Under the pieces are notes generated by a model. It had not been told where the DNA came from. It worked only from the letters and a program-made list of their open reading frames with translations, and did not search any database. The position numbers and the translations under genes are program-made. Below, piece by piece: positions 20,635 through 58,476 of a DNA stretch of 64,000 nt; position 1 is the stretch's first letter, and the number at the start of each line of letters is the position of its first letter. The stretch spans positions 13,634-77,633 of the forward strand of contig JANRIZ010000008.1 of NCBI GenBank assembly GCA_033764445.1. Reading direction: 5' to 3'. The DNA is from Verrucomicrobiia bacterium. GTDB lineage: Bacteria; Verrucomicrobiota; Verrucomicrobiia; JAWXBN01.

Positions 20635-23304
20635 TTAGGCGGCTTCGCGGCCCATCAAGTCCTCGGGCCGGATGTTGGTCTTTTCCTGTTTGGTCCAGTA
20701 ATCCTTGACGATTTTGCGGGTGGCCTCGGAAACCACATTGATCATGGTGCCGCAGATGGGCCGTTGGGCGTCGAGGTGGTAGTAGGTGAATTTTGAATAG
20801 GCGTAGTCGATGTGCTCGGGAAGATCGTATTCCATGATCTCGTTTTTGGTCGCCTCCGGCAGGCCAAAGACCTGGCTGATGTCCTCAAGGTCATCCCGGT
20901 CGTTCTGTTTCTGGAGCAGGAGCATTTTGGCGTTACCGAAGACAATGGGCCGGATACGGCTTTGTTTGAACTGGGCGTACTGCTGGACGATTGAGCAGAC
21001 CCAAGCGCGGAATTTGCGCATTTGCGCGTAGGTTTCCTTGACAAATTCCTCTCCCCCTGGGATGTCGAGCAAGCGGGCCACTTCCTCAAAAATCACCGCC
21101 TTCCGGAGACTCCTGGGAAGGGAAATGATGTGTTGCCTGACAAACATGGCTATGAGGAAACCGGCCAAGTCCTTCAGCTCGGAATTGGCGCGGAGATCAC
21201 CCAGTTCAAAGTGGGTGAGGGCCTGAGTGAGTTTGATATTTGTCACCCCGTCGAAAAGTTTTCCGTTTGATCCACGGTCCGCCGTCCACGTTTCCAAGAC
21301 CGTGGCAATGTCCCGGACAAACCGGGCATCGTGGTTTGACATCGGAGTCATTTTCATGGCTTCGACAAGGGTTGAGTGCCTGGGCATTTCTTCAGGCGTC
21401 AAAAAGGCATAGGCCAGATTCCTCACCAGAATCTGGGTGGTGGGAGTTTTGTAGAATCTTGCGACATCCTCGCCACTGTATGATTCAATGACTTTGTGAA
21501 GTTCCAGACTCGCCTCGTTTTCGCGGGCATAAGCAAAAGCCTCGACAAAGGTGGTCGTGGCATCATCCTTCTTGAGAATGCGCTGGATACGACTGATGGC
21601 CATGGTCATCCGGGCAAAGTAATCCGCCTTGTCGGGCCGGTACTTGACCCAGTTCTGGAAGGTTCGGGTGTAAAGCCGTGTAATATAGGAGGTGATGAGG
21701 GATTTCTTGAGATACTGCTTATCCTCGTCGGATACATGGCCAGCCATGCGTGCCGCAATGGCCGAGGCCGTTTCAATGTGGCTGAAATTGAGTGGCAACC
21801 CGTGCGTGTCCAGATAATTGATGGTCAATTCCCCATCGGCCTGGAGAAAGATGGTCTGACCCATGCAGGCTTTGACCAGAGGGCCGTAGGAATTTCCCTC
21901 CTCGATGATGGCCGTGTAGTGGAGAAACGGAAGAATCTGACTGAGAAGGTCAAACATGAGCATGGATTTCCCCGCCCCTGACATGCCCAGCAGAACGGCA
22001 TGTTGAGGCTGACCATTGATGTCGGTCCTGATTCCGGCTAATGCGTTGTGGTTTGAGTCGTAGAATGCCTCCGCCTGGTCAAGATGCCCTGAAAAGGACG
22101 AACTCAAGGGCATGATCCGGGCCAACACCTTGTCCTCACTGTATTTTTTATGATCGGTGTATGTCCCGTAAATCCAGCCTGGCCAGCTTTGGAAAAAGAG
22201 CTTCCGGCTCGTGGCAAAAGTCAGCGGCCTGTGATACCTGGCTCCTGGAATACGTTCAATGATGTCTTCGAGGCGGGCCGTGTTCCTGGCCAATTCATCG
22301 GGGGAGGCTGCCCAGAGCCTGAAAATGTAATCAATCTCATGGGGAGTGGTCACCCCCAGGGAAATATTTTCGAGCCGTTGTTTGCGCATGTTGAATTCGG
22401 TAAGCAAATCCTCGTCCTGTTTGGAAGCGTAGGAAGTCTTGAGGTCATTCATGATGGCCTGTTCCTTGCGCTTGGCCTTGCGGATGTCCATCGGATAGAC
22501 GTTGACAGTGATGTTGTAGTCCAGAAGGTCCGTGTGCGTGTATTGCAGGGCGGAAGTCTCCTCGGTGACATCCGGCAGGCGGGATAGAACGAGAATGTTC
22601 TGGTAGAACCCATCCCACGCAAACCCAAAGGCGGGCCGGTGCCTCAACCCCCCCTGCATCTCGCTGTTGAGACAATTCCGGCAGATGGATTCCCCTGGCT
22701 GAAACTGGTTGCTGATGTCGAGATTAAAGCGTGTATGAAGCGAGGGCCGGAGGAAATAGCTCAAATGCTTGAAATGATCAATATCATCCATGGGAAGAAG
22801 ACTGGAACCCGTGGGGCGGAAACGGTTCATCAGGGAGCTTTGGAGCAACTCAAATTCGGAGTGAAGCTCGTCAATAATGTCCTCCCAGAACTTGCGGATG
22901 TCATTTTTGGAAAGACCCGCCGGTGGGCTGTTTTTGATTGGCCGTGAAAAGTAAACCCTCATCACTTCGCGCCGGTGCTTCCGGTTCCGGACATTGTTCC
23001 AGGCTCGGGCGGCCCTTTCCTCCCGGTTTTTTTTGGGCCATCCGTCGGGCATGGCCTTGGTCTGGACATTGTAGGCCAGAATCTCCTTCCGATAATCGCT
23101 ATCCGGCATGAATTGCCCTTGGATGCGCCATTTGACAGACAGGGAATTGAGTTGGTTGCACACCGCCCGCTCGAATTTGGCCAAACCGGCATCACCGGCA
23201 TTGGACCGGTCCGGGCCTTCAAAAAGAAAGCCACGGGAAACCCACTGGGGCGGGTCGCCCCATACGAGCATATCTTTGATAAAATAGCCGTCCGGGCAGT
23301 TCAT
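20635..23304 (-). CDS. trbE: VirB4/TrbE/CagE-family T4SS ATPase
   Basis: 889 aa; Walker A motif GMSGAGKS; size and architecture of VirB4. Confidence 0.85.
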   Translation of the reverse strand: MNCPDGYFIKDMLVWGDPPQWVSRGFLFEGPDRSNAGDAGLAKFERAVCNQLNSLSVKWRIQGQFMPDSDYRKEILAYNVQTKAMPDGWPKKNREERAARAWNNVRNRKHRREVMRVYFSRPIKNSPPAGLSKNDIRKFWEDIIDELHSEFELLQSSLMNRFRPTGSSLLPMDDIDHFKHLSYFLRPSLHTRFNLDISNQFQPGESICRNCLNSEMQGGLRHRPAFGFAWDGFYQNILVLSRLPDVTEETSALQYTHTDLLDYNITVNVYPMDIRKAKRKEQAIMNDLKTSYASKQDEDLLTEFNMRKQRLENISLGVTTPHEIDYIFRLWAASPDELARNTARLEDIIERIPGARYHRPLTFATSRKLFFQSWPGWIYGTYTDHKKYSEDKVLARIMPLSSSFSGHLDQAEAFYDSNHNALAGIRTDINGQPQHAVLLGMSGAGKSMLMFDLLSQILPFLHYTAIIEEGNSYGPLVKACMGQTIFLQADGELTINYLDTHGLPLNFSHIETASAIAARMAGHVSDEDKQYLKKSLITSYITRLYTRTFQNWVKYRPDKADYFARMTMAISRIQRILKKDDATTTFVEAFAYARENEASLELHKVIESYSGEDVARFYKTPTTQILVRNLAYAFLTPEEMPRHSTLVEAMKMTPMSNHDARFVRDIATVLETWTADRGSNGKLFDGVTNIKLTQALTHFELGDLRANSELKDLAGFLIAMFVRQHIISLPRSLRKAVIFEEVARLLDIPGGEEFVKETYAQMRKFRAWVCSIVQQYAQFKQSRIRPIVFGNAKMLLLQKQNDRDDLEDISQVFGLPEATKNEIMEYDLPEHIDYAYSKFTYYHLDAQRPICGTMINVVSEATRKIVKDYWTKQEKTNIRPEDLMGREAA

Positions 23305-23672
23305 GATATTGCTTCCCAGGAGTCTGAGTTTTCATCAGGAAAGGCGAGGGGATGGCGGATGGATTTTGCAAGGTCTGGCTTCCACGATTTTTCAAGGTTG
23401 AAAACATCATGGAAATAATCCTTGTCGTAGGCCGGAGGTTTACCCTGCCTGAAACCGAATATCCAAACGCTCGCCAGAATCACAGGTACGGCCGCCAGCC
23501 CAAACTTGATCGCATAGTGCAAGTTCCAAGTCTTGAGCTGATAGAGGCACCCCATGGCAAGCATGACTCCCCCGATGAATATGAAGGCGTTTTCATTGCC
23601 TTCAAAGATCAGGAACTTGCCCTTGCTTTCGTCGGCTCCGAGTGTGCGATAGACGGTAGGCATATGGGTCAA
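23301..23672 (-). CDS. VirB3/TrbD-like small membrane protein
   Basis: ~120 aa with a hydrophobic hairpin, immediately upstream of and overlapping virB4 (TTG/ATG start at 23672/23663). Confidence 0.45.
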   Translation of the reverse strand: MTHMPTVYRTLGADESKGKFLIFEGNENAFIFIGGVMLAMGCLYQLKTWNLHYAIKFGLAAVPVILASVWIFGFRQGKPPAYDKDYFHDVFNLEKSWKPDLAKSIRHPLAFPDENSDSWEAIS

Positions 23673-23818
23673 TTTCCCAGGATGAGCCAGTCAAAGAGGT
23701 AGATGCCAATGGCTGCGGCGGCCAAGGCCACGCCCGTCCAGTTGCGTTTGCCTTCCTCTGTCTTGAAGTAGAAGAAGTAGCCGGAGGCCATGAGAAGGAT
23801 GATGGTGAGGATTTTCAT
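23669..23818 (-). CDS. unannotated 49-aa two-TM ORF (MKILTIILLMASGYFFYFKTEEGKRNWTGVALAAAAIGIYLFDWLILGN)
   Basis: Hand translation; ATG at 23818, TGA overlapping the downstream start; not in the ORF track (<60 aa). Confidence 0.3.
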   Translation of the reverse strand: MKILTIILLMASGYFFYFKTEEGKRNWTGVALAAAAIGIYLFDWLILGN

Positions 23819-23848
23819 ATGATATTATGATGATGTTTTGTTTGAGGA

Positions 23849-24148
23849 TTATTCGATTTTGACTTTTGAGCCTGATAGCCCGCCGATATCGTAGTAGGCT
23901 TCCATGATGGCCGGTGCGGCCGCCACCATGAGCCCGATCAAAAGCCCAAACTTGGCTTTTTCGCGGTCGGAACTCATGTAGAACCCGGACCCGGCGACGG
24001 CAATGGCTCCGAGAAGGAAAAGAATTTTGAAGACAATGTTTCCGCCCTTGGAAAGCAACTGATCAAGATTAGCGGCGGCAAAAATGAAGGCTGGGGAGAA
24101 TAGGATTTGATTTCCTATGATACTAAGGTGGATGATAAACATCTGCAT
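23849..24148 (-). CDS. VirB2/TrbC pilin-like protein
   Basis: 99 aa with two hydrophobic helices separated by a short charged loop; first gene of the T4SS operon. Confidence 0.45.
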   Translation of the reverse strand: MQMFIIHLSIIGNQILFSPAFIFAAANLDQLLSKGGNIVFKILFLLGAIAVAGSGFYMSSDREKAKFGLLIGLMVAAAPAIMEAYYDIGGLSGSKVKIE

Positions 24149-36527: not shown

Positions 36528-36808
36528 ATTTGTTAAATTCCAATAGATTGATGATTTTGATTCAAATGGTCAATAGTAGAATGCATTTTTAGCTTTAACG
36601 ATATTCAAATGATAAAAATTTGCGATTATTAAAAGCCTGCAATCAAATAATCTGGCTTTTGAAACCAGAGTTTTTAACCCAAAATAATCACTCGTTCCCA
36701 GAATTTTAAAAAACATACCCCCCCATTTTTTAAAATGGCAGGGTCATAAAATTAAAATCGCCCAATACTGATTCTTGTAAATCCACTCCGTTCTGTTATC
36801 CCTCACCC

Positions 36809-42800: not shown

Positions 42801-43479
42801 CACGGAGTATGATGACCTGGAAACACGCCACACCTTCCTCAACAACGAGTACGAGGACCTGGTCAAGGCCAAGGAAAACATCCTGGAGGCCATCAACCAG
42901 ATCAACAAGACCACCCATGTGCTTTTTGCCGAAACATTCGAGCAGATCCGGGTCAACTTCCAGCAGGTGTACGTGGAACTCTTCGGCGGTGGCAAGGCCA
43001 ATTTGATTCTTCAGGATGAAAATGATCCGCTCGAATGCGGCATCGAAATTGTTGCCAAACCTCCGGGGAAACAACTCCAAAGCATCCAGCTTCTTTCCGG
43101 CGGAGAAAAAACCATGACGGCGGTGGCCCTCCTTTTCGCCATGTACATGGTCAAACCCAGTCCCTTCTGCGTGCTGGACGAAATGGACGCGCCCCTGGAC
43201 GAATCCAACATCAATCGGTTTCTGAAAATCCTGACCCGTTTCAAGGATCAGTCTCAGTTTGTACTGATTACTCACAATAAGCGCACGATTGGCTTTTCCG
43301 ATGTGTTGTACGGGGTGACGATGCAGGAAAGTGGCGTTTCCAAGGTCGTCTCTGTGAAATTCAACCACAATGATCCTCTTACCGGGGGCCATGCAAAAAC
43401 TCTCGAAGGCGAGGTGCCGAGCATCTCCGAAAGCATGGGCAAACCGCTGGATGTTCCGGAACCGGCCACACAGATGTGA
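39811..43479 (+). CDS. smc: chromosome segregation protein SMC
   Basis: 1222 aa; N-terminal Walker A GPNGCGKSN, long coiled coils, hinge, C-terminal LSGGEKT signature and Walker B. Confidence 0.95.
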   Translation: MYLKTLTAVGFKSFADKVELHFPPGVTAIVGPNGCGKSNVSDSIRWVLGEQSAKSLRAGAMADVIFSGTDSRKPLNMSEVSLTFADCESVLGVEYNEVTITRRLFRDGQSEYEMNKTPCRLKDIHQLFMDTGIGRSAYSMMEQGKIDKILSAKPEDRREVFEEAAGITKYKSQKREALRKLEYTEANLLRLTDIIKEVKRQIGSLQRQAGKARRYKELLEQMRSSETRLSRHKYDVLSSEVNRLQSQADNLRFEFEQLSFTLETQEIQISQHRSELELLETKVADARQDHTGIRTRVERGQNLIRVNHERIAEGESLISQYRAEVSAAEEKIKIQQEQLGSIRSMIEENMSGMNLAQETLLQKQSALAHITGELHTKDGQIDAAQREAQTVERKISQLRMQIEQIEGTIQTQGIRREKLSDDQAQLTGQESALKARLTSLEVSTTQAREKTAALTSSITREETALHEAEAHWRSSLESISLQQNELAAARSKLEVLSQMAAEGGSAGTGAQAILSGELAPELSAKVMGTLSSLIEVKSEYVTAIEAALGSALEAVVVDTPETALSLLQVLSTREKGTATLIPVDMIRNMRQEFPGNLPPEAIGWAYQQVTAPESVGTYVYKLLQGYVLTRTLEEAVALHKMFPCLSAVTLAGETVVSPGLMKGGRDRAGTSSLLNRKAHLAEIQVSIQALTAELERRQEAGQSAEAAKKALEERLRELRALLRTEENELATKTSELRQAQREISDFKARSEQMVREVDAAAAQVTESAARQNQLQEQLQSLLEEEARGRETLATLQAEFDAITPREQAAQAEFLDAKVAAATEKQKIEAMQSQCDPIAARLRELAEMISQRETDILRYNEKIDSLRSEIARTEESLAGSDEALARAQSKIDELTAYRKDIHAKVEEADREVRSRRVHQQELNNQRSSVDVQLAQRRIFIDNLREHIQKRYQVNLEEIVLEVQVEGESIEPNWEELEKQVREMQERLDEMGPINIEAITEYDDLETRHTFLNNEYEDLVKAKENILEAINQINKTTHVLFAETFEQIRVNFQQVYVELFGGGKANLILQDENDPLECGIEIVAKPPGKQLQSIQLLSGGEKTMTAVALLFAMYMVKPSPFCVLDEMDAPLDESNINRFLKILTRFKDQSQFVLITHNKRTIGFSDVLYGVTMQESGVSKVVSVKFNHNDPLTGGHAKTLEGEVPSISESMGKPLDVPEPATQM

Positions 43480-43731
43480 CGGATTTGTCTTCCAACCTTT
43501 AATGACGATTGGTTTTTCACTTCGGCCTGGAGGGAAGGGTGAATAATTTGGATCGGGCCGTTTTTACCATTGAACGGCAAAAATACTCATTTGGCGGAAA
43601 GATCATTATTTCAAAATGGCAATTATTATATTTTTAATAATTTATATAATTCATAAAACATTAAACAGCATATACTTAATATGATTTGATTTTTAACTGA
43701 CAACATATATAGTATTTAAAAGTATTCAGCT

Positions 43732-43920
43732 ATGTCGAAACCTGATCCCCAATTATCCCCTCAGGAAAATTCCTCCTCAAACTCAGGAGATGAAAAAAAT
43801 GTCTTGCTGGACGATTCCGTAGAAAAAAATCAGTCGGAGAAAACGCCCGAATTTACGGTCTCATTGTCTGATTCCGGTACATACAAAATCTCGGCAATTT
43901 CCTCCCAGTTCGGAAAATAA
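43732..43920 (+). CDS. small protein, paralog family A (C-terminal motif TYKISAISSQFGK)
   Basis: 62-aa ORF in a ~28% GC islet; C-terminus P[ED]F...G[TS][YF]K[IL]SA[IT]S..[FY]GK shared with 44212..44427. Confidence 0.4.
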   Translation: MSKPDPQLSPQENSSSNSGDEKNVLLDDSVEKNQSEKTPEFTVSLSDSGTYKISAISSQFGK

Positions 43921-44211
43921 ATTTTAAAATATCTGCTTTTCCCTTTTTTGTCTTATTCAGTTGGATTTTTTTAATTTCCAATATTTTTTCATAAAATTAT
44001 TGTTTTTTCAATTCTGACTGTATTTCAGTCTCCGGACAGTCGTTTTGTCGATTTTTACGTACCGTTCATAATTTTATATTTATCTATATTGTGTCAAATA
44101 TTATATTTTTTATAATTTTATCTATCTGTAAAGTGTTGAATAAAAGTAACTTAAAAATATTTGATTAAAAATAAAAATGCTTTACTCTTACCTCAACAAC
44201 GAGGAGAAAAT

Positions 44212-44427
44212 ATGATCAAAAAGATTCTTAATTTTGACTTCAAATTAAATCGTCCTGAAAAAACAAATTCAATACCCACCTCCAAATGCGATACCAAAGT
44301 CATTATTCTCCCCATCGCAGGGAAGAGGCAACCCGAACCGCTTCCTGACTTCATTTTTGCCCCCACCAAGACAGGCAGCTTCAAACTTTCAGCCACCTCC
44401 AAGTATTTCGGGAAAAAAAAGATATGA
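44212..44427 (+). CDS. small protein, paralog family A (C-terminal motif SFKLSATSKYFGKK)
   Basis: Start moved to ATG 44212, preceded by gaggag; its stop overlaps the ATG of the downstream receiver-like gene (ATGA). Confidence 0.4.
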   Translation: MIKKILNFDFKLNRPEKTNSIPTSKCDTKVIILPIAGKRQPEPLPDFIFAPTKTGSFKLSATSKYFGKKKI

Positions 44428-44903
44428 ATGGCATCCTCCTCTACGAATCGAACCCCGCCCTTTCATCCTACTTCTCCCGCCTGTTCAACGATTTTGCCAA
44501 GGAGGACACTTTCATCCTGACGACGGAGTCCCTTTCCGAAACCACCCGGATTCTGGAGGACATCCATATCCAGCTTTTTGTATTTCATGAGGATGTTCCC
44601 AGCCTGGGCAGCGTGGAGCTGCTCCATCTCATCCGCAACCGGTTTCCGCTGACCCGGACCATGGTATTGACAGAAAGTGTCAATCCGGACCAGAAGGCGC
44701 TCTATCTCGAAAATGGGGCCATCGCAGTCACCACATTTCCGGATTCCCCGGAATCCGCCTCGCGTCTGCGGGAATCCATCCGGTCCATCATCAATTCCCG
44801 TCGCATGCCGGCCCTGCCGCGGTACCTGAACCGGTTGAGCGAGTCGATGGGCCTGGGTCTGGAGCAGCGGTCCCCCATGGATCAGGATATGGAACTGGCC
44901 TGA
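44424..44903 (+). CDS. degenerate receiver (REC)-like single-domain protein (phospho-acceptor Asp position occupied by His; Lys missing)
   Basis: ILLYES...IQLFVFHEDVPSLGSVELLHLIRNRFPLTRTMVLTES follows the CheY-like beta1/beta3/beta4 pattern but lacks the DD pair and the conserved D and K. Confidence 0.4.
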   Translation: MNGILLYESNPALSSYFSRLFNDFAKEDTFILTTESLSETTRILEDIHIQLFVFHEDVPSLGSVELLHLIRNRFPLTRTMVLTESVNPDQKALYLENGAIAVTTFPDSPESASRLRESIRSIINSRRMPALPRYLNRLSESMGLGLEQRSPMDQDMELA

Positions 44904-44993
44904 TCTGTCGGGTGGTCCGAAAGATGGGGTTCCCAGGCACCCCGTCTTTTTAGATTGCGCGATTGATCAATTCCCGCCAGAAAAGGGCATCCT

Positions 44994-45575
44994 ATGAAAT
45001 ACAAGACGTTCCTTCTGTTTGGCGCCCCCGGCAGTGGCAAGGGCACTCAGGGAATGATTCTGGGCCGGGTTCCCGGATATTTTCACTGTGCCTGCGGGGA
45101 TGTGTTCCGCTCGGTGGACCTGACCAGTCCCATCGGGAAAGCCTTTCTGGAATATTCCTCGCGCGGTCAGCTTGTGCCCGACGACGTGACCATCGACCTT
45201 TGGAAAAACTCCCTCGACGGGGCGGTCCACACCAAAAGGTTCAAACCGGAGACAGACTACCTGGTTCTCGATGGCATTCCCCGCAATGTCGAACAGTCCA
45301 AAATTCTGGAGGCTCACCTGGATGTCATCCGCGTGTTCCATCTGACCTGTGCGGACCGCTCCAAGGTCATCGAACGTCTCAAACGCCGTGCCATCAAGGA
45401 TAACCGCCAGGATGACGCCAATGACGAGGTCATCCGCAAACGTCTCGAAGTCTACGATCACGAATCCAAACCGGTACTGGAGTTTTATGGGACCTCCAAG
45501 CTCATCCATATCAATGCCGAACAACGCCCGGATCAGGTGCTTCGGGACATTCTGGATGTGACGGCGGTGCTCTGA
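44994..45575 (+). CDS. adk: adenylate kinase
   Basis: P-loop GAPGSGKGTQ; LID region. Confidence 0.9.
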   Translation: MKYKTFLLFGAPGSGKGTQGMILGRVPGYFHCACGDVFRSVDLTSPIGKAFLEYSSRGQLVPDDVTIDLWKNSLDGAVHTKRFKPETDYLVLDGIPRNVEQSKILEAHLDVIRVFHLTCADRSKVIERLKRRAIKDNRQDDANDEVIRKRLEVYDHESKPVLEFYGTSKLIHINAEQRPDQVLRDILDVTAVL

Positions 45576-45645
45576 TTTGCATTGATCTGCCCCTCCCATC
45601 GGCCCGACCAGGGCCACGCCCCCAATCCCTCTCCCCCCACTCTGA

Positions 45646-46593
45646 ATGCTTCGAATCGTCTTTATCGGCTCCGCTTCCCTGGCCTCCCCCTCACTGGATA
45701 TGCTCTGTTCCCGGCCTGAATTCACGGTCGTGGGGGTGGTGACACAGCCCGACCGTCCGGCCGGACGCAGGATGGAACTGACCCCCTGTCCTCTCAAGGA
45801 AACGGCCCTCCAGCATCACCTGCCGGTTTTTCAGCCGGCCAAAATCAGATCCCCGGATGCCATCGCACAAATTGCCTATCTGAAACCGGATGCCATTGTC
45901 GTGGCCGCCTATGGACAGATTCTCCCCAAGTCAATCCTGGACCTGCCGCCTCTGGGGACTTTCAACGTCCATGCCTCCCTCCTGCCTGCCTACCGGGGGG
46001 CCGCACCGATCCAGTGGGCGTTACTGGACGGGAAAAGTGTTTCCGGGGTCACCATCATGAAGGTCGATGAGGGTCTCGATACGGGGGATATCCTCCTCCA
46101 GGAAAAAGTCCATATCCGGCGTTCCGAAAATGCCCAGACCCTCCACGACCGACTCGCGGCCTCCGGTGCAAAACTTCTCGTGGAGGCCCTGCTGAAGGCG
46201 CAGGCCGGAAAGCTTGTTCCTGTCGCCCAGCCGGCGGATTCAACGACCGACTACGCCCGGAAACTGACCCGTGAGGATACGCATCTGGATTGGACACGTC
46301 CCCCGCTCGAGCTATGGTTCAAAATCCGCGCCTTTGCACCCCGGCCCGGAGCCTATGCGATGATGGTCAGCGGCATGGATCGGAAAAGTCTCAAGGTTTT
46401 TGAGGTGATCATCTCCCGCCGTGCCACGGGCAAGCCGGGGGAAATCCTGCGTCTGGACAAACACGGCATTCTGGTGGCGGCCTCGAAGGGTGGATTGCTC
46501 CTGCGTGAAGTGCAGATCGAGGGTAAAAAGCGGATGCCGGCGGCGGAACTGATCAATGGCAACCTCCTCAAGGTCGGCGATATTCTGCAGTAG
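45646..46593 (+). CDS. fmt: methionyl-tRNA formyltransferase
   Basis: RIVFIGS...NVHASLLPAYRGAAPIQWALLDG formyl-transferase core plus C-terminal domain. Confidence 0.9.
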   Translation: MLRIVFIGSASLASPSLDMLCSRPEFTVVGVVTQPDRPAGRRMELTPCPLKETALQHHLPVFQPAKIRSPDAIAQIAYLKPDAIVVAAYGQILPKSILDLPPLGTFNVHASLLPAYRGAAPIQWALLDGKSVSGVTIMKVDEGLDTGDILLQEKVHIRRSENAQTLHDRLAASGAKLLVEALLKAQAGKLVPVAQPADSTTDYARKLTREDTHLDWTRPPLELWFKIRAFAPRPGAYAMMVSGMDRKSLKVFEVIISRRATGKPGEILRLDKHGILVAASKGGLLLREVQIEGKKRMPAAELINGNLLKVGDILQ

Positions 46594-54812: not shown

Positions 54813-54913
54813 ATCCATCTTATCCCCTCCCATCGATCATGCAAAACCCACCCGGAACATTGCTGGATCAGTTGAATCATCCATCTTATCCCCTCCCATC
54901 GATCATGCAAAAC
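54813..54913 (+). repeat. perfect 35-bp direct repeat (atccatcttatcccctcccatcgatcatgcaaaac) x2, period 66 bp, each copy containing an in-frame ATG
   Basis: Copies at 54813..54847 and 54879..54913, seen directly in the sequence. Confidence 0.85.
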
Positions 54914-55543
54914 ATACGTACCGTTGTCATTGAGGACATTACACTTCTGCGGGAACTGATCATCAACTCCCTGAAGTCCGATCCCCAGTTTGAAATCGTC
55001 GGCCAGGCGGCAGACGGGCATCAGGCCTTGGAACTGATCCGCAGCCGCCTGCCCGACATGCTCATTCTCGATCTCATGCTGCCCGGCCTGGCGGGGGTGG
55101 AGGTTCTCAAACGCTTTTTCAAACTCAATCCCAAAGGCCGGGTGCTGGTTGTCACCGGCTACGAAAACCCCGCCTTGGTCCGGGAGGTTCTGGAAGCGGG
55201 GGCCCAGGGTTTCATCGAAAAAAGCGCCTCACTCGAGGACATGGTGTTGGCGATCAAAAAAGTGGCCCATGGCGAAAGTTACCTGGGCAATTCCGTGGCC
55301 CAGATGCTGCGGGACGCGGCCTTCTCCAAAAACAACGACCCGGTCCCGCTCACCAGCCGGGAACGCGAGGCGCTCCAAATGATTGCCGAGGGCAAAAGCA
55401 CCAAGGAAATCGCCGACATCATGAAAATCAGCGTCAATACCGCCCGCAACCACCGCGCCAACCTCATGGCCAAGCTCAATATCCACGACATTTCCTCCCT
55501 GACCCGTTACGCCATCAAGATGGGCATCGCCACCGCCCGCTGA
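54839..55543 (+). CDS. NarL/FixJ-family response regulator (REC plus LuxR-type HTH)
   Basis: REC motifs VVIEDI...LILDLMLPG...VVTGY; C-terminal LTSREREALQMIAEGKSTKEIA. The true start may be the second ATG at 54905. Confidence 0.85.
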   Translation: MQNPPGTLLDQLNHPSYPLPSIMQNIRTVVIEDITLLRELIINSLKSDPQFEIVGQAADGHQALELIRSRLPDMLILDLMLPGLAGVEVLKRFFKLNPKGRVLVVTGYENPALVREVLEAGAQGFIEKSASLEDMVLAIKKVAHGESYLGNSVAQMLRDAAFSKNNDPVPLTSREREALQMIAEGKSTKEIADIMKISVNTARNHRANLMAKLNIHDISSLTRYAIKMGIATAR

Positions 55544-55766
55544 GGCGAGCCCGTTCGCAGGGACGCATGAACAAGGTCAGTCTTCCAAAGTAGCAGGAGC
55601 ATCTTGCTCCCATGAGCGTTGAGTGTTCAGGGTTGAGCGGAGTGGGTTCTCTGTTCCCGGTTCCCGGATGTCGGCCTGAGGACGAAGCGGGCGAAGGTCT
55701 GTCATGAGACATGAGTCATCTGGAATGAGACATTATTCCCATTGTGAATTTTTGTGCATGGGAGTC

Positions 55767-55790
55767 TACCCCGGATTGATCGGGGCGGCC
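55767..55790 (-). repeat. short inverted-orientation fragment of the repeated extragenic element (copy C)
   Basis: taccccggattgatcggggcggcc is the reverse complement of the element core in copies A and B. Confidence 0.6.
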
Positions 55791-55878
55791 ATCATCTGCG
55801 GGTTTCCCCACCGGTAATGTCTCTGATTCTCCGTGCATTTCTCCCCTTCTGAGATAAAATGCATCCGCTTCACCATAG

Positions 55879-58476
55879 ATGAATATCAAACAGAAATCGG
55901 TCCTGATCATGCTCTCCATCTGGGGGCTGTTGGGGATTCTGCTGCTGGTTTTTGTCTTCGGCTATCTGCTGCCGGCCTTTGAAAAACTTGAGCTGGATAA
56001 TGCCAGCAAAACCACCCTCCGCCTGCGTGCCTCGGTTCTGGAGGCGCAGGAAAAATTCGCCCTGGAAATGGTCGAATGGGCCGGACGCAACAACCTCCCC
56101 GATCCTCCCGGCAGGCAAAGGGGGCCCGAATCCTTGTCCCCCCCGGTCACCCCCCTCTTCGCGGTGGCCTCTCTCGGCCAGGACGGGAAAATCCTGTCGC
56201 TGCTGCCGGTTCCCGGATCAAATGCCAAGGCCGGGACCGAGCTCGATTCCTATCTCAAAAAAAATGCCGCAGGACTTGCAAAACGGCAGGGTTCCAATCC
56301 TTTGAACGGTCTTTTGAAAATCCAGAACAAACCTCTGCTGGCCACTTTTCTGCCTCTGCAAACGGGAACCGATCCGAAATCCCCCGCAAAATTTCTCCTC
56401 GCCCTCAGGGAGGTGGACGCCAGCACCCTGCAACAATGGGAGGACCGTGTCCAGTCTCCGATCCGTCTCATGCACGCGGGTCTTTTCAGCGCTCTGCCCC
56501 CGGGCCGGGGCGGGCGGAACAATCCCTCCTCCCCCGAAATGAATATCCTGGTCAAGGATGGTTCCTTCATTGAGGGGATGATCAGCATTCCGGACCCCTT
56601 TGGTGACCCTGTGTTTACGGGGTCGGTCACGATGGCACGGGATTTCCGGATGAAAATGATCGAAATCATTGTCTTCTTCCTGATCAACCTCGGGCTGACC
56701 GGGGCGGGGCTGTGGATTCTGGGCCATCTGCTTCTGAATTATTTTGTGATCGAACGCGTTCAAAGGCTCCGTGCGGCGGTCTCCTCCATCAATGCCCCGG
56801 CCATCCAATCCCACGCCCCGCTCCCGGAATTGCCTGGGGACGAAATCGGTCAGTTGGGCGCCCAAATCAACCGGCTGCTGGGCGACCTCCAAAAGGCGGA
56901 TGAGGAAATCCGTCTCAACCGCGAACAATTGCTCGAACTGGCGGCCCTGGTCGAGGAATCCTCCATCGCCATTCTCATCTGTGGCGCCGACCGCCATATC
57001 CAATACGCCAACCGCGAGGCGGAAATCCTCTTTTCGCAGACGGGCAGCAGTCCCCTGCGTTGTACGCTCGATTCCCTCCACCTCAATCCGGATCAGGGTC
57101 AGCCCCCGCTCGAAGCGGTCTGGCAGGAGGCCATCGACGAGGGTTTCTGGTCGGGGCACCTGATCGTTCAGAATCGGGAGGCCCATCTGTGCAATCTCAA
57201 GACAAGTATCTGCGCCATTTCCGGAACATCCGGGGGACGGGACCGCTACGCGCTCTTCTGTCTGGATGTCACCAATGAAATCCGTCTGCAAAACCAGCTC
57301 CGCCAGTCGCAAAAAATGGAGGCGGTGGGCAAACTCGCGGGGGGCATCGCCCACGACTACAACAATCTTCTGTTCATCATCCGTGGACATGCCCAAATGG
57401 CCCTCGAGGCCTCCACCCCGGGCAGTCCTTCGGCCTCCTATCTGCTGAATATTCTGGAGGCCTCCGACAAGGCGGGGGCGATCACCCAGCAGCTCCTGTC
57501 CTTCAGCCGCAAAACCCCGGCCTCCCGCCATGTCCTGGATATCGCCGCCGCCGCCGCCAATCTCTCCAATATGGTCTCCCGCATCGCAGGGCCCGGCGTC
57601 AGAATCCAGTTTCTTCCGCCACCCTCCGTCCTGGCGGTCCGGGCGGACCGGGTCCAGATCGACCAGTTGCTCATGAATCTCCTGCTCAATGCCCGCGATG
57701 CGATCGGTGACCATGAGGGTCTCATCCGGGTCGGGGTCTCCTCCCGCTCGATTGATGAAATGCCGCCCGATCCGGAAAAACCCTACTCCTCCCCCCGCTA
57801 CGTCCTCCTCTCGGTCAACGACGACGGCTGTGGCATGGATCAGAACCAGATCGAACATCTTTTCGAGCCCTTCTACACAACAAAGGCCAAGGGCAAGGGG
57901 ACGGGGCTGGGCCTGGCCACGGTCTATGGCATTGTGACCAATCACGAGGGTCTGATCCGGGTCAGCAGCAAACCGGGTCAGGGCTCGACCTTTGAGGTTT
58001 TTCTCCCCCAATCCGATGATCCGGTCGAACCGGTCGAACCGCCCCCCCCGGTCCTCAGGGACAAGATCCCCGGCACCCTGCTGCTCTTTGAGGATGAAAC
58101 CATGAGCCGGATCCTGCTGCAGGGCTTTTTTGAACAGTCCGGCTTGAAGGTCTTCGCCGCAGGCAGCGGGGAGGAGGGGATCGATCTCTTCAACGGACAT
58201 CGTGAGGAAATCGATCTGGTCCTCATGGACGTGATTCTTCCGGGGAAAAACGGTTTTGAAACGGCGGAGATACTCCTGCAATCCCGTCCGACGCTGCCGC
58301 TGATTTTTATGAGTGGTCATACGGGGGAGAACTTTCCCCCGGCCTTCCGCCGTTTTACGCTGGTCAAGAAGCCCTTCGACCTGAACTTCCTGCTGGAAAA
58401 AATCCGGGGTCTCCTGACCGAACTCCGCGCCCAGACCCAGACCATCGAGCAAGGCCCAACGGGCTGCCACAGGTGA
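55879..58476 (+). CDS. hybrid sensor histidine kinase (two TM helices, periplasmic domain, HAMP, PAS, HisKA, HATPase and C-terminal REC)
   Basis: H-box GGIAHDYNNLL; G-boxes ...GTGLGLATV...; C-terminal REC DLVLMDVILPGKNG. Confidence 0.85.
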   Translation: MNIKQKSVLIMLSIWGLLGILLLVFVFGYLLPAFEKLELDNASKTTLRLRASVLEAQEKFALEMVEWAGRNNLPDPPGRQRGPESLSPPVTPLFAVASLGQDGKILSLLPVPGSNAKAGTELDSYLKKNAAGLAKRQGSNPLNGLLKIQNKPLLATFLPLQTGTDPKSPAKFLLALREVDASTLQQWEDRVQSPIRLMHAGLFSALPPGRGGRNNPSSPEMNILVKDGSFIEGMISIPDPFGDPVFTGSVTMARDFRMKMIEIIVFFLINLGLTGAGLWILGHLLLNYFVIERVQRLRAAVSSINAPAIQSHAPLPELPGDEIGQLGAQINRLLGDLQKADEEIRLNREQLLELAALVEESSIAILICGADRHIQYANREAEILFSQTGSSPLRCTLDSLHLNPDQGQPPLEAVWQEAIDEGFWSGHLIVQNREAHLCNLKTSICAISGTSGGRDRYALFCLDVTNEIRLQNQLRQSQKMEAVGKLAGGIAHDYNNLLFIIRGHAQMALEASTPGSPSASYLLNILEASDKAGAITQQLLSFSRKTPASRHVLDIAAAAANLSNMVSRIAGPGVRIQFLPPPSVLAVRADRVQIDQLLMNLLLNARDAIGDHEGLIRVGVSSRSIDEMPPDPEKPYSSPRYVLLSVNDDGCGMDQNQIEHLFEPFYTTKAKGKGTGLGLATVYGIVTNHEGLIRVSSKPGQGSTFEVFLPQSDDPVEPVEPPPPVLRDKIPGTLLLFEDETMSRILLQGFFEQSGLKVFAAGSGEEGIDLFNGHREEIDLVLMDVILPGKNGFETAEILLQSRPTLPLIFMSGHTGENFPPAFRRFTLVKKPFDLNFLLEKIRGLLTELRAQTQTIEQGPTGCHR

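What the first reader, a model, noticed from the sequence alone, without database searches (positions are those of the whole stretch)
43480..44903. AT-rich islet (~28% GC) encoding two paralogous small proteins translationally coupled to a degenerate receiver domain
Between smc and adk lies ~0.9 kb of very AT-rich DNA. It contains two small ORFs (62 and 71 aa) whose C-termini share P[ED]F...G[TS][YF]K[IL]SA[IT]S..[FY]GK. The second ORF has a clear gaggag RBS, and its stop overlaps (ATGA) the start of a 159-aa receiver-like protein. In that protein the phospho-acceptor Asp position is His and the conserved Lys is absent (pseudo-receiver). Sharp composition contrast, paralogous peptides and a coupled degenerate signalling domain are the signature of an uncharacterised small-protein system, for example secreted or precursor peptides plus a regulator or chaperone-like partner.
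Basis: seen in the sequence. Interest (0 to 1): 0.65.

Follow-up and report, generated by a model that had tools for sequence, protein, structure and literature searches.

The report
Duplicated small proteins with pseudo-receiver partner
An AT-rich stretch between smc and adk in an uncultured Verrucomicrobia genome carries two real, duplicated small-protein genes, the second translationally coupled to a phosphorylation-dead receiver domain; the module has no detectable relative in public data, so its function can only be inferred.

Summary
Bases 43480-44423 are the most AT-rich ~0.9 kb of the window (GC 0.33 against 0.55). They contain ORF1 (62 aa) and ORF2 (71 aa, GAGGAG ribosome-binding site). 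The ORF2 stop overlaps (ATGA) the start of a 159-aa protein.

The two ORFs are true paralogues and true coding sequences. Nucleotide identity by codon position is 29/32/13 of 52, and 11 of 17 conserved residues use different codons.

Their upstream DNA was duplicated with them. An 80-nt block, with two boxes exactly 50 nt apart in both copies, is 65% identical, although silent sites are saturated. It is probably a shared promoter/operator.

The 159-aa protein is a divergent receiver domain: hhalign 97%, an AF2 (βα)5 model, and only receivers among the top Foldseek hits. It has His55 in place of the phospho-Asp and Ser108 in place of Lys, so it is a pseudo-receiver. Its base composition is native; only the small genes are AT-rich.

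Nothing supports secreted or RiPP peptides. None of the three genes has a homologue in about 15 billion proteins, but the nearest sequenced relative is only 73% identical in Adk.

Best guess, inferred only: the basic ORF2 protein binds the acidic pseudo-receiver, and the acidic ORF1 paralogue competes with it. Interest is moderate.

The parts
43480..43731 (+). Unit 1 upstream region, AT-rich non-coding DNA (GC 0.30). It is homologous to 43962-44211.
   Evidence: Global alignment score 106 against 71.5 +/- 7.9 for shuffles, maximum 93. GC.
43508..43529 (+). Box C, copy 1 (ATTGGTTTTTCACTTCGGCCTG).
   Evidence: Direct repeat D3, 82% identical to 43999-44020.
43624..43643 (+). Box A, copy 1 (TATTATATTTTTAATAATTT). 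It contains the near-palindrome ATTATA-N5-AATAAT and is a putative operator or upstream promoter element.
   Evidence: Two matches in the window against 0.00 expected. It lies 108 nt upstream of the ORF1 ATG.
43674..43691 (+). Box B, copy 1 (ACTTAATATGATTTGATT). It ends in a -35-like TTGATT that pairs with TATAGT at 43708-43713.
   Evidence: Promoter-like site TTGATT-16-TATAGT. Box coordinates. The box A to box B distance is exactly 50 nt in both units.
43732..43920 (+). ORF1: small acidic protein, 62 aa, pI 4.5. The N-terminal half is hydrophilic and variable. The C-terminus carries PEF...GTYKISAIS..FGK.
   Evidence: It was called as a gene in two Logan assemblies. Strain variants change 4 residues, all in the N-terminal half, and leave the frame intact.
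43921..44211 (+). Unit 2 upstream region, AT-rich non-coding DNA (GC 0.23).
43999..44020 (+). Box C, copy 2 (ATTGTTTTTTCAATTCTGACTG).
44099..44118 (+). Box A, copy 2 (TATTATATTTTTTATAATTT). It contains the perfect palindrome ATTATA-N5-TATAAT.
   Evidence: It lies 113 nt upstream of the ORF2 ATG.
44149..44166 (+). Box B, copy 2 (ACTTAAAAATATTTGATT).
   Evidence: The offset from copy 1 is 475 nt, the same as for box A.
44201..44206 (+). Shine-Dalgarno GAGGAG for ORF2, 5 nt before the ATG.
   Evidence: The neighbouring genes (smc, adk, fmt, ORF1) lack such a site.
44212..44427 (+). ORF2: small basic protein, 71 aa, pI 10.1, net charge about +10. The C-terminus carries PDF...GSFKLSATS..FGK followed by KKI. 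NCBI tag SFY92_00855.
   Evidence: It was called as a gene in every assembly that carries it.
44415..44421 (+). A_AAA_AAG heptamer inside an A8 run, in phase with ORF2. The -1 frame is the receiver frame and is open.
   Evidence: A -1 shift, or one extra A, would give a 230-aa fusion. No downstream hairpin was found (z = -0.8).
44424..44903 (+). Stand-alone pseudo-receiver, 159 aa, pI 4.95. Key residues: E8, S9, H55, T83, F105, S108, P109. It forms (beta-alpha)5 plus an extra helix at 131-141 and a disordered tail. NCBI tag SFY92_00860.
44919..44952 (+). Terminator-like hairpin (A-tract, GC stem, U-tract) that closes the ORF2/pseudo-receiver unit before adk.
   Evidence: The fold of 44895-44995 gives -44.7 kcal/mol, z = -4.3, and 0 of 200 shuffles fold as well. 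Coordinates.

Best explanation
This is a lineage-restricted regulatory module with three genes.

Shown:
- A unit of about 475 bp was duplicated in tandem. The unit is an AT-rich control region plus a small-protein gene.
- Both gene copies stayed under protein-level selection.
- Both kept an 80-nt upstream block with two boxes in exact 50-nt register.
- The downstream copy (ORF2) has the only strong Shine-Dalgarno site in the neighbourhood.
- ORF2's stop overlaps the start of a stand-alone receiver-fold protein. That protein cannot be phosphorylated at the canonical site (His55 for Asp, Ser108 for Lys, Ser9 for the second metal-binding Asp). It keeps Thr83 and Phe105, the residues of the 'Y-T' conformational couple.
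- A terminator-like hairpin closes this two-gene unit before adk.

Inferred:
- The basic ORF2 protein (+10) is made in step with the acidic pseudo-receiver (pI 4.95) and binds it through the conserved C-terminal segment, F-x-[VF]-x4-5-G-[ST]-[YF]-K-[IL]-S-A-[IT]-S-x2-[FY]-G-K. I read that segment as a beta-hairpin from its alternating residue pattern only; no structure of the small proteins was predicted. The bound protein would stand in for phosphorylation as the switch that sets the receiver's conformation or partner choice.
- The acidic ORF1 paralogue is separately transcribed and carries the same C-terminal motif. It would compete for the same site, or titrate ORF2.
- The shared upstream boxes (palindrome ATTATA-N5-TATAAT, centred about 50 nt upstream of a -35-like TTGATT) put both small genes under one DNA-binding regulator.
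- The output of the pseudo-receiver is unknown. It has no effector domain, so it must act through protein-protein contacts.
For: Small ORFs are coding and paralogous:
- BLASTP E = 5e-9.
- Identical nucleotides by codon position are 29/32/13 of 52 (chi-square p = 3e-4).
- 11 of 17 conserved residues use different codons. The other two frames give 4 and 8 identities and contain stops.

Upstream DNA is under constraint:
- The 20-nt box occurs twice against 0 expected.
- An ungapped 80-nt block is 52/80 identical, against 29.5 +/- 4.0 for shuffles. It is the best of all offsets tested, while third codon positions are only 25% identical.
- There is no consensus RNA structure in that block, which favours a DNA-level role.

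Coupling:
- The ATGA overlap and GAGGAG site are in the sequence.
- A terminator-like hairpin follows the receiver gene.

Receiver fold:
- Pfam Response_reg, E = 0.024.
- PDB HupR receiver domain, E = 3e-4.
- HMMER over 1.84e9 representatives gave five alignable hits at E <= 1e-3, all bona fide Response_reg proteins.
- hhalign probability 97.3%, E = 2.7e-11.
- AF2 with a 6-sequence alignment: pLDDT 77, pTM 0.71, (beta-alpha)5.
- The top 50 Foldseek PDB hits are all receiver domains or response regulators.
- Key residues.

Charge complementarity: pI 10.1 for ORF2 against 4.95 for the receiver.

Precedent:
- Small proteins that bind receiver domains exist. The IraD-RssB complex 6od1 is among the fold hits, and anti-adaptors are described in PMC3877760 and PMC4428439.
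- Regulation of pseudo-receivers through protein-protein contacts is discussed in PMC12632262.
Against: - No binding test was possible.
- Translational coupling shows co-expression, not interaction.
- None of the three genes has a homologue anywhere. There is therefore no co-occurrence statistic and no covariation.
- The composition mismatch inside one operon (ORF2 GC3 0.49, receiver GC3 0.74) suggests the small genes and the receiver gene have different histories. The pairing may be recent or incidental.
- ORF1 accumulates amino-acid changes between near-identical strains: 4 replacements, and 5 of the 9 SNPs found in 8 kb. This could mean relaxed constraint.
- The promoter assignment is weak. 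Only unit 1 has a recognisable -10 after box B.
Confidence: 0.4

Rival explanations
1. The small proteins work on their own, for example as nucleic-acid-binding or stress proteins. The ATGA overlap with the pseudo-receiver serves only to co-express two otherwise unrelated genes.
For: - ORF2 protein is very basic (pI 10.1), as many small nucleic-acid binders are.
- ORF1 has no receiver gene behind it, yet it kept the motif and the control region.
- The small genes and the receiver gene have different compositional histories.
Against: - ORF1 protein is acidic (pI 4.5) and keeps the same motif. The conserved part is therefore not a charge-based nucleic-acid binder.
- No family match of any kind was found.
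Confidence: 0.2
2. A horizontally acquired selfish cassette, such as a toxin-antitoxin-like pair (a small upstream protein overlapping a roughly 160-aa partner), that landed at a rearrangement junction.
For: - The gene layout (71 aa, then 159 aa, with a 4-nt overlap) is typical of type II TA pairs (my own knowledge).
- The composition is AT-rich and foreign-like: GC1, GC2 and GC3 of the small ORFs are all low.
- The site is a synteny break. Relatives have a radical-SAM or methyltransferase gene upstream of adk, not smc.
- A conjugation-type ATPase lies 20 kb away.
Against: - The larger gene has native composition (GC3 0.74) and is a receiver fold, not a known toxin fold.
- There are no PADLOC, PHROG, plasmid or phage matches.
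- No Pfam, NCBIfam or PDB match of any kind, DNA-binding or other, was found in ORF2.
- No integrase, repeats or tRNA flank the region.
Confidence: 0.12
3. ORF2 and the receiver are two halves of one protein. Either a programmed -1 frameshift or transcriptional slippage at A_AAA_AAG in the A8 run makes a 230-aa fusion, or a formerly fused gene was split by a 1-nt change.
For: - The in-phase heptamer A_AAA_AAG lies at 44415-44421, the last three sense codons but one of ORF2.
- The -1 frame is exactly the receiver frame and is open from 44349.
- One extra A also gives the fusion.
Against: - No stimulatory hairpin follows the site (z = -0.8), and I saw no SD-like element 10-14 nt upstream in the printed sequence.
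- The receiver ORF has its own ATG two residues before strand beta-1, as stand-alone receivers do.
- The ORF1 paralogue ends naturally at FGK*, so the small protein is complete without the receiver.
- The A8 run is identical in the five assemblies that cover it.
Confidence: 0.1
4. The small ORFs are chance reading frames in an AT-rich promoter spacer, and only the pseudo-receiver is a gene.
For: - No homologue exists in any database.
- ORF1 has no SD site. I found no NCBI protein record for it, and the consecutive locus tags SFY92_00855 and SFY92_00860 belong to ORF2 and the receiver gene.
- AT-rich intergenic DNA is normal in this genome, for example 36530-36800.
Against: - The codon-position asymmetry is 29/32/13 (p = 3e-4), and 11 of 17 conserved residues are encoded by different codons.
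- Only this frame is conserved and free of stops.
- GC rises to 0.41-0.42 inside both ORFs, against 0.20-0.30 around them.
- ORF2 has a strong SD site and stop-start coupling.
Confidence: 0.06
5. Secreted peptides or RiPP precursors with a regulator or chaperone partner.
For: The products are small and paralogous, share a conserved motif and lie next to a signalling-type domain.
Against: - There is no signal peptide or membrane segment.
- Cys is nearly absent (0 and 1 residues).
- The conserved part is C-terminal and the variable part N-terminal.
- No modifying enzyme, protease or exporter lies within 5 kb on either side.
Confidence: 0.04

Closest known systems
Bacterial pseudo-receivers / aspartate-less receiver (ALR) domains (reviewed in PMC12632262; PMC4395418)
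   Same: - It has the (beta-alpha)5 receiver fold and is recognisably homologous to PF00072 members.
- It lacks the phospho-acceptor Asp, the Lys and the second metal-binding Asp.
- It is a stand-alone domain, a common ALR architecture according to PMC4395418.
   Different: - The sequence falls below Pfam's gathering score (15.2 against 30.2 bits).
- It has no relative closer than 26-28% identity among 1.84e9 representatives.
- It has His at the D position.
- It is translationally coupled to a dedicated small protein. I did not find this arrangement described in the sections of these two papers that I read.
Small-protein binders of receiver domains: the anti-adaptors IraD, IraM and IraP acting on RssB (PMC3877760, PMC4428439; PDB 6od1)
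   Same: It works like this in the proposed model. Small, lineage-restricted, mutually unrelated proteins bind a receiver domain and change its output without phosphotransfer. Several such proteins can compete for one receiver.
   Different: - There is no sequence similarity.
- From my own knowledge, the Ira genes are not translationally coupled to rssB.
- RssB keeps its Asp and has a PP2C-like output domain.
- Binding here is inferred, not shown.
Type II toxin-antitoxin operons
   Same: A small upstream gene overlaps a gene of about 160 aa by 4 nt. The module is lineage-restricted, AT-rich and sits at a synteny break.
   Different: The larger protein is a receiver fold with native composition. 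Neither protein matches any toxin, antitoxin or defence model.
dnaX-type programmed -1 frameshift (A_AAA_AAG)
   Same: It has the identical slippery heptamer in the correct phase, and the -1 frame is open into a downstream domain.
   Different: There is no downstream stem-loop and no correctly spaced upstream SD-like stimulator. The downstream ORF has its own start codon.

Membership tests
Receiver domain (CheY-like, Pfam PF00072) | (beta-alpha)5 flavodoxin-like fold | tested here: met
   The AF2 model built from a 6-sequence alignment has pLDDT 77.4 and pTM 0.71, with the order E2-7 H11-25 E29-34 H37-46 E51-55 H63-73 E78-83 H88-96 E99-103 H109-124. The top 50 Foldseek PDB hits are all receiver domains or response regulators, with target-normalised TM-score up to 0.86. 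Caveat: the alignment rows were themselves receivers. The single-sequence model was uninformative (pLDDT 39).
Receiver domain (CheY-like, Pfam PF00072) | Sequence reaches the family's curated score | tested here: not met
   Response_reg scores 15.2 bits against a cut-off of 30.2, E = 0.024. Homology is nevertheless supported by hhalign (97.3%, E = 2.7e-11), by PDB HupR (E = 3e-4) and by library-wide HMMER hits to true receivers.
Receiver domain (CheY-like, Pfam PF00072) | Phospho-acceptor Asp at the end of beta-3 | tested here: not met
   His55 aligns with CheY D57 and with the HupR Asp.
Receiver domain (CheY-like, Pfam PF00072) | Acidic pair (DD) after beta-1 that binds Mg2+ | tested here: not met
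   The pair is Glu8-Ser9. The first position is acidic and the second, metal-ligating position is Ser.
Receiver domain (CheY-like, Pfam PF00072) | Thr/Ser at the end of beta-4 and an aromatic residue at K-3 (Y-T coupling) | tested here: met
   Thr83 is an invariant column in alignment A3, and Phe105 occupies K-3.
Receiver domain (CheY-like, Pfam PF00072) | Lys at the end of beta-5, followed by cis-Pro | tested here: not met
   Ser108 replaces Lys. Pro109 is kept.
Pseudo-receiver (PsR) as defined in PMC12632262 | Computationally recognisable as a receiver but lacking residues needed for phosphotransfer | tested here: met
   See the rows above. Three of the five active-site residues are replaced (DD2, D and K).
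Pseudo-receiver (PsR) as defined in PMC12632262 | Not phosphorylated in vivo or in vitro | not testable with these tools
   This needs biochemistry, for example acetyl-phosphate or kinase assays.
RiPP precursor or secreted peptide | Signal or leader peptide, and adjacent modifying enzyme, protease or exporter | tested here: not met
   The maximum 15-residue hydropathy is 0.34 and 0.79, so there is no signal peptide. The neighbours are smc, adk, fmt, PAP2, pdxA and an M23 peptidase. The conservation is C-terminal.
Type II toxin-antitoxin or defence system | Match of either protein to a known toxin, antitoxin or defence family | tested here: not met
   Pfam, NCBIfam and PADLOC give no match for the small proteins. 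PADLOC gives none for the 159-aa protein.
Receiver-binding connector or anti-adaptor proteins (Ira, PmrD type) | Direct binding to a receiver domain that changes its output | not testable with these tools
   The only evidence is gene coupling and charge complementarity. There is no sequence similarity to known connectors.
dnaX-type programmed -1 frameshift | In-phase slippery heptamer with an open -1 frame | tested here: met
   A_AAA_AAG lies at 44415-44421. The -1 frame is the receiver frame and is open from 44349.
dnaX-type programmed -1 frameshift | Downstream stimulatory stem-loop | tested here: not met
   The best fold of the 45-80 nt downstream is -5.1 to -7.9 kcal/mol, with z from -0.8 to +0.6.

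The most novel reading that the evidence does not exclude
The two small proteins would be the founding members of a new class of dedicated pseudo-receiver ligands. A basic 'on' partner would be made stoichiometrically with the receiver, and an acidic, fast-evolving paralogue would act as its competitor. Both would sit under one operator. Protein binding would then replace Asp phosphorylation as the input to a receiver fold that still keeps its Thr/Phe conformational couple. A low-level -1 frameshift at A_AAA_AAG might additionally tether partner and receiver in one chain.
Probability: 0.2. Interest if true: 0.55.

Novelty: new variant of a known kind. Interest (0 to 1): 0.35.

Why it matters
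Pseudo-receivers make up several percent of bacterial receiver domains, and how they are switched is largely unknown (PMC12632262). A stand-alone pseudo-receiver with a translationally coupled small partner and a competing paralogue would be a compact, synthesisable test case for control of the receiver fold by protein binding.

The locus also shows a useful method. When a lineage has no sequenced relatives, comparing paralogues inside one genome can still prove that orphan small ORFs are coding and that their upstream DNA is under constraint.

The limits are plain. There is a single species, the organism is uncultured, no homologues exist, and function is inferred from layout alone.

Tried and rejected
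Homologue searches that found nothing beyond the same species:
- The 159-aa protein and the two-paralogue profile against 5.8e9 protein clusters.
- Full HMMER search of the 159-aa protein over 1.84e9 representatives, which returned only weak generic receiver hits.
- Pattern plus tblastn scans of metagenome contigs and viral contigs.
- tblastn and blastn against plasmids and phages.
- Pfam, NCBIfam, PADLOC, PHROGs and the PDB for the small proteins.

Synteny approach:
- Adk-anchored loci from 17 Verrucomicrobiota genomes (which also returned one Flavobacteriales locus at 32% identity) and from the three closest protein hits.
- adk-fmt is conserved in most of them. None shows smc, a homologue of the receiver-like gene or a small-ORF match upstream.
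- The closest Adk anywhere is 73% identical, so absence of homologues says little.

Other negative checks:
- The best distant receiver hit of similar length (P0007) has no similar small ORF in the 198 nt upstream of it on its 1-kb contig.
- RNA explanations: no Rfam family, no tRNA or tmRNA, and no consensus structure in the conserved upstream block.
- Stem-loops just after smc and after ORF1 are not significant or not conserved (z = -0.9 and -2.5). I dropped the idea that the duplicated unit starts with a terminator.
- I looked by eye for sigma-54, sigma-28 and ECF-type promoter motifs in the boxes and did not find any conserved in both units.
- The single-sequence AF2 model of the receiver was useless (pLDDT 39).
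Full report
**1. What is in the sequence**

The gene positions are as follows:
- smc (1222 aa; Pfam SMC_N and SMC_hinge on the identical Logan gene) ends at 43479.
- adk starts at 44994.
- ORF1 is 43732-43920 (62 aa).
- ORF2 is 44212-44427 (71 aa). GAGGAG at 44201-44206 sits five bases before its ATG.
- A 159-aa ORF is 44424-44903. Its ATG overlaps the ORF2 stop as ATGA.

The stretch 43480-44423 has GC 0.328, and it is the lowest-GC 944-bp stretch of the window (median 0.553). The non-coding parts are 0.20-0.30 and the two small ORFs 0.41-0.42.

A second AT-rich spot at 36530-36800 is an ordinary divergent intergenic region between a biotin-carboxyl-carrier gene and a RidA-family (Ribonuc_L-PSP) gene. 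AT-rich spacers as such are therefore normal in this genome. The length of this one and its gene content are what stand out.

**2. The small ORFs are real, paralogous genes**

- BLASTP aligns 52 residues without gaps, with 17 identities and E = 5e-9.
- tblastn of either protein against the whole window finds only the other one (E about 4e-6), with no third copy.
- Over those 52 codons, the nucleotides are identical at 29, 32 and 13 sites for codon positions 1, 2 and 3 (chi-square p = 3e-4).
- 11 of the 17 conserved amino acids are written with different codons.
- The same nucleotide alignment read in the other two frames gives 4 and 8 identities and contains stops.

Silent sites are thus saturated while the protein sequence is held. 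That is the signature of two genes kept by selection since an old duplication.

**3. The duplication included the control region**

- The upstream regions align better than any of 200 shuffles (score 106 against 71.5 +/- 7.9, maximum 93).
- At a fixed offset of 475 nt, with no indel, 43612-43691 and 44087-44166 are 52/80 identical. Shuffles give 29.5 +/- 4.0, and this is the best of 190 offsets tested.
- Box A is TATTATATTTTT[A/T]ATAATTT at 43624 and 44099, with 0.00 matches expected by chance. It contains ATTATA-N5-TATAAT, perfect in unit 2.
- Box B is ACTTAA.A..ATTTGATT at 43674 and 44149.
- The distance from box A to box B is exactly 50 nt in both units.
- A third box (ATTG.TTTTTCA.TTC.G.CTG) lies at 43508 and 43999.
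- In unit 1, the TTGATT of box B pairs with TATAGT at 16-nt spacing as a sigma-70-like promoter. Unit 2 has no clear -10 at that place.
- RNAalifold finds no shared structure in the block, and Rfam finds nothing.

I therefore read the block as DNA-level control: a promoter plus an upstream operator shared by both small genes. That reading is an inference. The conservation and the fixed spacing are shown.

**4. The 159-aa protein is a pseudo-receiver**

Sequence evidence:
- Pfam Response_reg matches only weakly (15.2 bits, cut-off 30.2, E = 0.024).
- phmmer against PDB finds the HupR receiver domain (E = 3e-4) over 120 residues.
- Full HMMER over 1.84 billion representatives finds seven proteins besides itself at E <= 1e-3. 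The five alignable ones are all strong Response_reg proteins. The other two were a low-complexity protein and a 6589-aa repeat protein that I did not examine further.
- hhalign against a small profile of those receivers plus CheY gives 97.3% probability, E = 2.7e-11, over 124 columns.

Structure evidence:
- AF2 without an alignment failed (pLDDT 39).
- With a six-row alignment, AF2 gave pLDDT 77.4 and pTM 0.71. The model has the canonical beta1-alpha1...beta5-alpha5 order, an extra helix at 131-141 and a disordered tail.
- The first 50 Foldseek hits in the PDB are all receiver domains or response regulators, including HupR, NtrC1, RR468, DivK and Spo0F.
- Caveat: the alignment rows fed to AF2 were receivers, so the model is not independent of the sequence evidence.

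Key residues, with the CheY equivalent first:

| CheY position | This protein |
|---|---|
| D12 / D13 | Glu8 / Ser9 |
| D57 | His55 |
| D+4 Pro | Pro59, kept |
| T87 | Thr83, kept |
| Y106 (K-3) | Phe105, kept |
| K109 | Ser108 |
| K+1 Pro | Pro109, kept |

Three of the five catalytic residues are gone, so canonical phosphotransfer is excluded on established grounds. The Thr and aromatic pair that couples the active site to the alpha4-beta5-alpha5 face is retained. By the definition in PMC12632262 this is a pseudo-receiver. That review puts such domains at about 6% of bacterial receivers and calls their switching mechanisms largely unknown.

**5. Composition and history**

The receiver gene has native composition (GC 0.57, GC3 0.74, like smc at 0.73 and adk at 0.69). 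ORF1 and ORF2 have GC3 of 0.47 and 0.49, and low GC at positions 1 and 2 as well. The 'islet' is therefore the two small genes and their control DNA, not the receiver.

Either the small-gene array arrived from elsewhere and became coupled to a resident gene, or AT-richness is itself maintained there. I cannot tell which.

The site is a synteny break:
- adk-fmt is conserved in 15 of the 17 Verrucomicrobiota loci recovered (the other two are truncated or lack fmt).
- None of them has smc, a receiver-like gene or a small-ORF match upstream.
- The four closest relatives (Adk identity 71-73%) have a radical-SAM (CofH_C-type) gene or a methyltransferase gene there.

**6. Orphan status, and what it is worth**

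No homologue of the small proteins or of the receiver was found in:
- 5.8e9 protein clusters;
- 1.84e9 representatives searched by full HMMER;
- metagenome or viral contigs scanned at the DNA level;
- plasmids or phages.

The same genes occur at 99.9% nucleotide identity in five Logan assemblies of one run series, DRR729080-85. NCBI holds them as MAG 'Verrucomicrobiae bacterium', SFY92_00855 and SFY92_00860.

The best Adk match in the whole protein collection is only 73% identical. This lineage has no close sequenced relative, so fast-evolving small genes would be invisible anyway. Orphan status is therefore weak evidence for novelty and no evidence against function.

**7. Protein properties**

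- ORF1 protein: pI 4.5, GRAVY -1.0.
- ORF2 protein: pI 10.1 (15 K+R against 5 D+E).
- Receiver: pI 4.95.
- None has a hydrophobic stretch (maximum 15-residue Kyte-Doolittle mean 0.34, 0.79 and 0.85), and Cys is 0, 1 and 0.

So there is no signal peptide and no membrane anchor. With housekeeping neighbours only, the secreted-peptide and RiPP reading has nothing in its favour.

The conserved part is V-[LI]-[LI], then P-[ED]-F-x-[VF], a Gly turn, and [YF]-K-[IL]-S-A-[IT]-S-x2-[FY]-G-K. The pattern suggests strands around a turn, a small beta unit. This is my reading of the residue pattern, not a prediction from a tool.

**8. Mechanism**

Shown:
- two co-duplicated small genes under a shared control block;
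- stop-start coupling of the second to a pseudo-receiver;
- the only strong SD site in the neighbourhood;
- a terminator-like hairpin after the receiver gene (z = -4.3), which makes ORF2 plus receiver a unit of its own.

Inferred:
- ORF2 protein binds the receiver. Coupled synthesis and opposite charge point that way.
- That binding substitutes for phosphorylation as the input.
- ORF1 protein, with the same motif but opposite charge and its own transcript, competes.

The nearest functional analogy is the set of small anti-adaptors that bind the RssB receiver (PMC3877760, PMC4428439). The IraD-RssB complex 6od1 appears among the fold hits. This is a 'works like' statement only. There is no homology and no binding test. 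I give the whole statement 0.4.

**9. Rivals**

| Rival | Confidence |
|---|---|
| Small proteins act independently of the receiver | 0.2 |
| Acquired toxin-antitoxin-like cassette | 0.12 |
| Fusion protein through the A_AAA_AAG heptamer or A8 run | 0.1 |
| Chance ORFs | 0.06 |
| Secreted or RiPP peptides | 0.04 |

On the fusion rival, the heptamer is in phase at 44415-44421. The -1 frame is the receiver frame and is open. A -1 shift or one added A gives a 230-aa fusion. Three things argue against it being the main product:
- there is no downstream hairpin;
- the receiver has its own ATG two residues before beta-1;
- ORF1 ends naturally at FGK.

**10. Verdict**

It is a genuine uncharacterised small-protein plus pseudo-receiver module, but not a secreted-peptide system.
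- Novelty: a new variant of a known kind, namely a pseudo-receiver with an unusual dedicated partner arrangement.
- Interest is 0.35. A two-component-signalling specialist would find the layout neat rather than startling, and a single uncultured species with no homologues limits what can be built on it.

Noticed in passing
window 43756, 43798, 43820, 43834, 43836 (inside ORF1): Five of the nine SNPs between the window and near-identical Logan contigs (99.9% over 8 kb) fall inside ORF1 (binomial p about 9e-7). They give S9T, N23Y, V30A and S35P. All are replacements in the variable N-terminal half, and the frame and C-terminal motif are untouched. At least three haplotypes exist. ORF2 and the receiver gene are invariant. 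This could reflect relaxed constraint, diversifying selection or a recombination tract.
   Followed up: partly
window 44413-44421: An A8 run contains the dnaX-type slippery heptamer A_AAA_AAG in phase with ORF2. The -1 frame is the receiver frame and is open from 44349. A -1 shift or one extra A would fuse ORF2 to the receiver (230 aa). No stimulatory hairpin lies downstream.
   Followed up: partly
window 43612-43691 and 44087-44166: An 80-nt upstream block is conserved without any indel between the two units (65% identity against 25% at silent codon sites). Box A (palindrome ATTATA-N5-TATAAT) and box B (…ATTTGATT) are exactly 50 nt apart in both. It is probably a shared operator plus promoter. 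The regulator is unknown.
   Followed up: partly
window 44994-46593, compared with loci L004-L029: adk-fmt is conserved across Chthoniobacterales-like relatives, but the gene upstream of adk differs. It is a radical-SAM CofH_C-type gene in three of the four closest relatives, a methyltransferase gene in the fourth, and smc only here. The module therefore sits at a rearrangement junction.
   Followed up: yes
whole window (organism): The closest Adk in about 5.8e9 protein clusters is 73% identical. The lineage (NCBI 'MAG: Verrucomicrobiae bacterium', tags SFY92_*) has no close sequenced relative, which by itself explains much of the orphan status of its fast-evolving genes.
   Followed up: yes
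window 20635-24148, minus strand: An 889-aa ATPase with a TraG P-loop domain (conjugation / type IV secretion type) is followed by three small hydrophobic ORFs (23301-23672, 23669-23818, 23849-24148). Lower-GC DNA lies at 24.0-24.8 kb. This may be part of an integrated conjugative element about 20 kb from the islet.
   Followed up: partly
window 54839-58476, plus strand: A bona fide NarL/LuxR-type response regulator (234 aa, Response_reg + GerE) lies next to a hybrid histidine kinase (865 aa: HAMP-PAS-HisKA-HATPase-REC), 10 kb downstream of the pseudo-receiver. Nothing links them to it.
   Followed up: no
window 36530-36800: A second AT-rich spacer (GC about 0.30) lies between divergent genes for a biotin-carboxyl-carrier (Biotin_lipoyl) protein and a RidA-family (Ribonuc_L-PSP) protein. 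The register of the Logan contig L001 shifts at about 36671, which implies a strain-level indel there.
   Followed up: no
locus L028 6676-7340 and L029 2856-3520: In one relative, a 93-aa gene overlapping a PIN-domain gene (a typical TA pair) sits just downstream of adk-fmt. The flanks of this conserved gene pair seem to be insertion-prone in the group.
   Followed up: no
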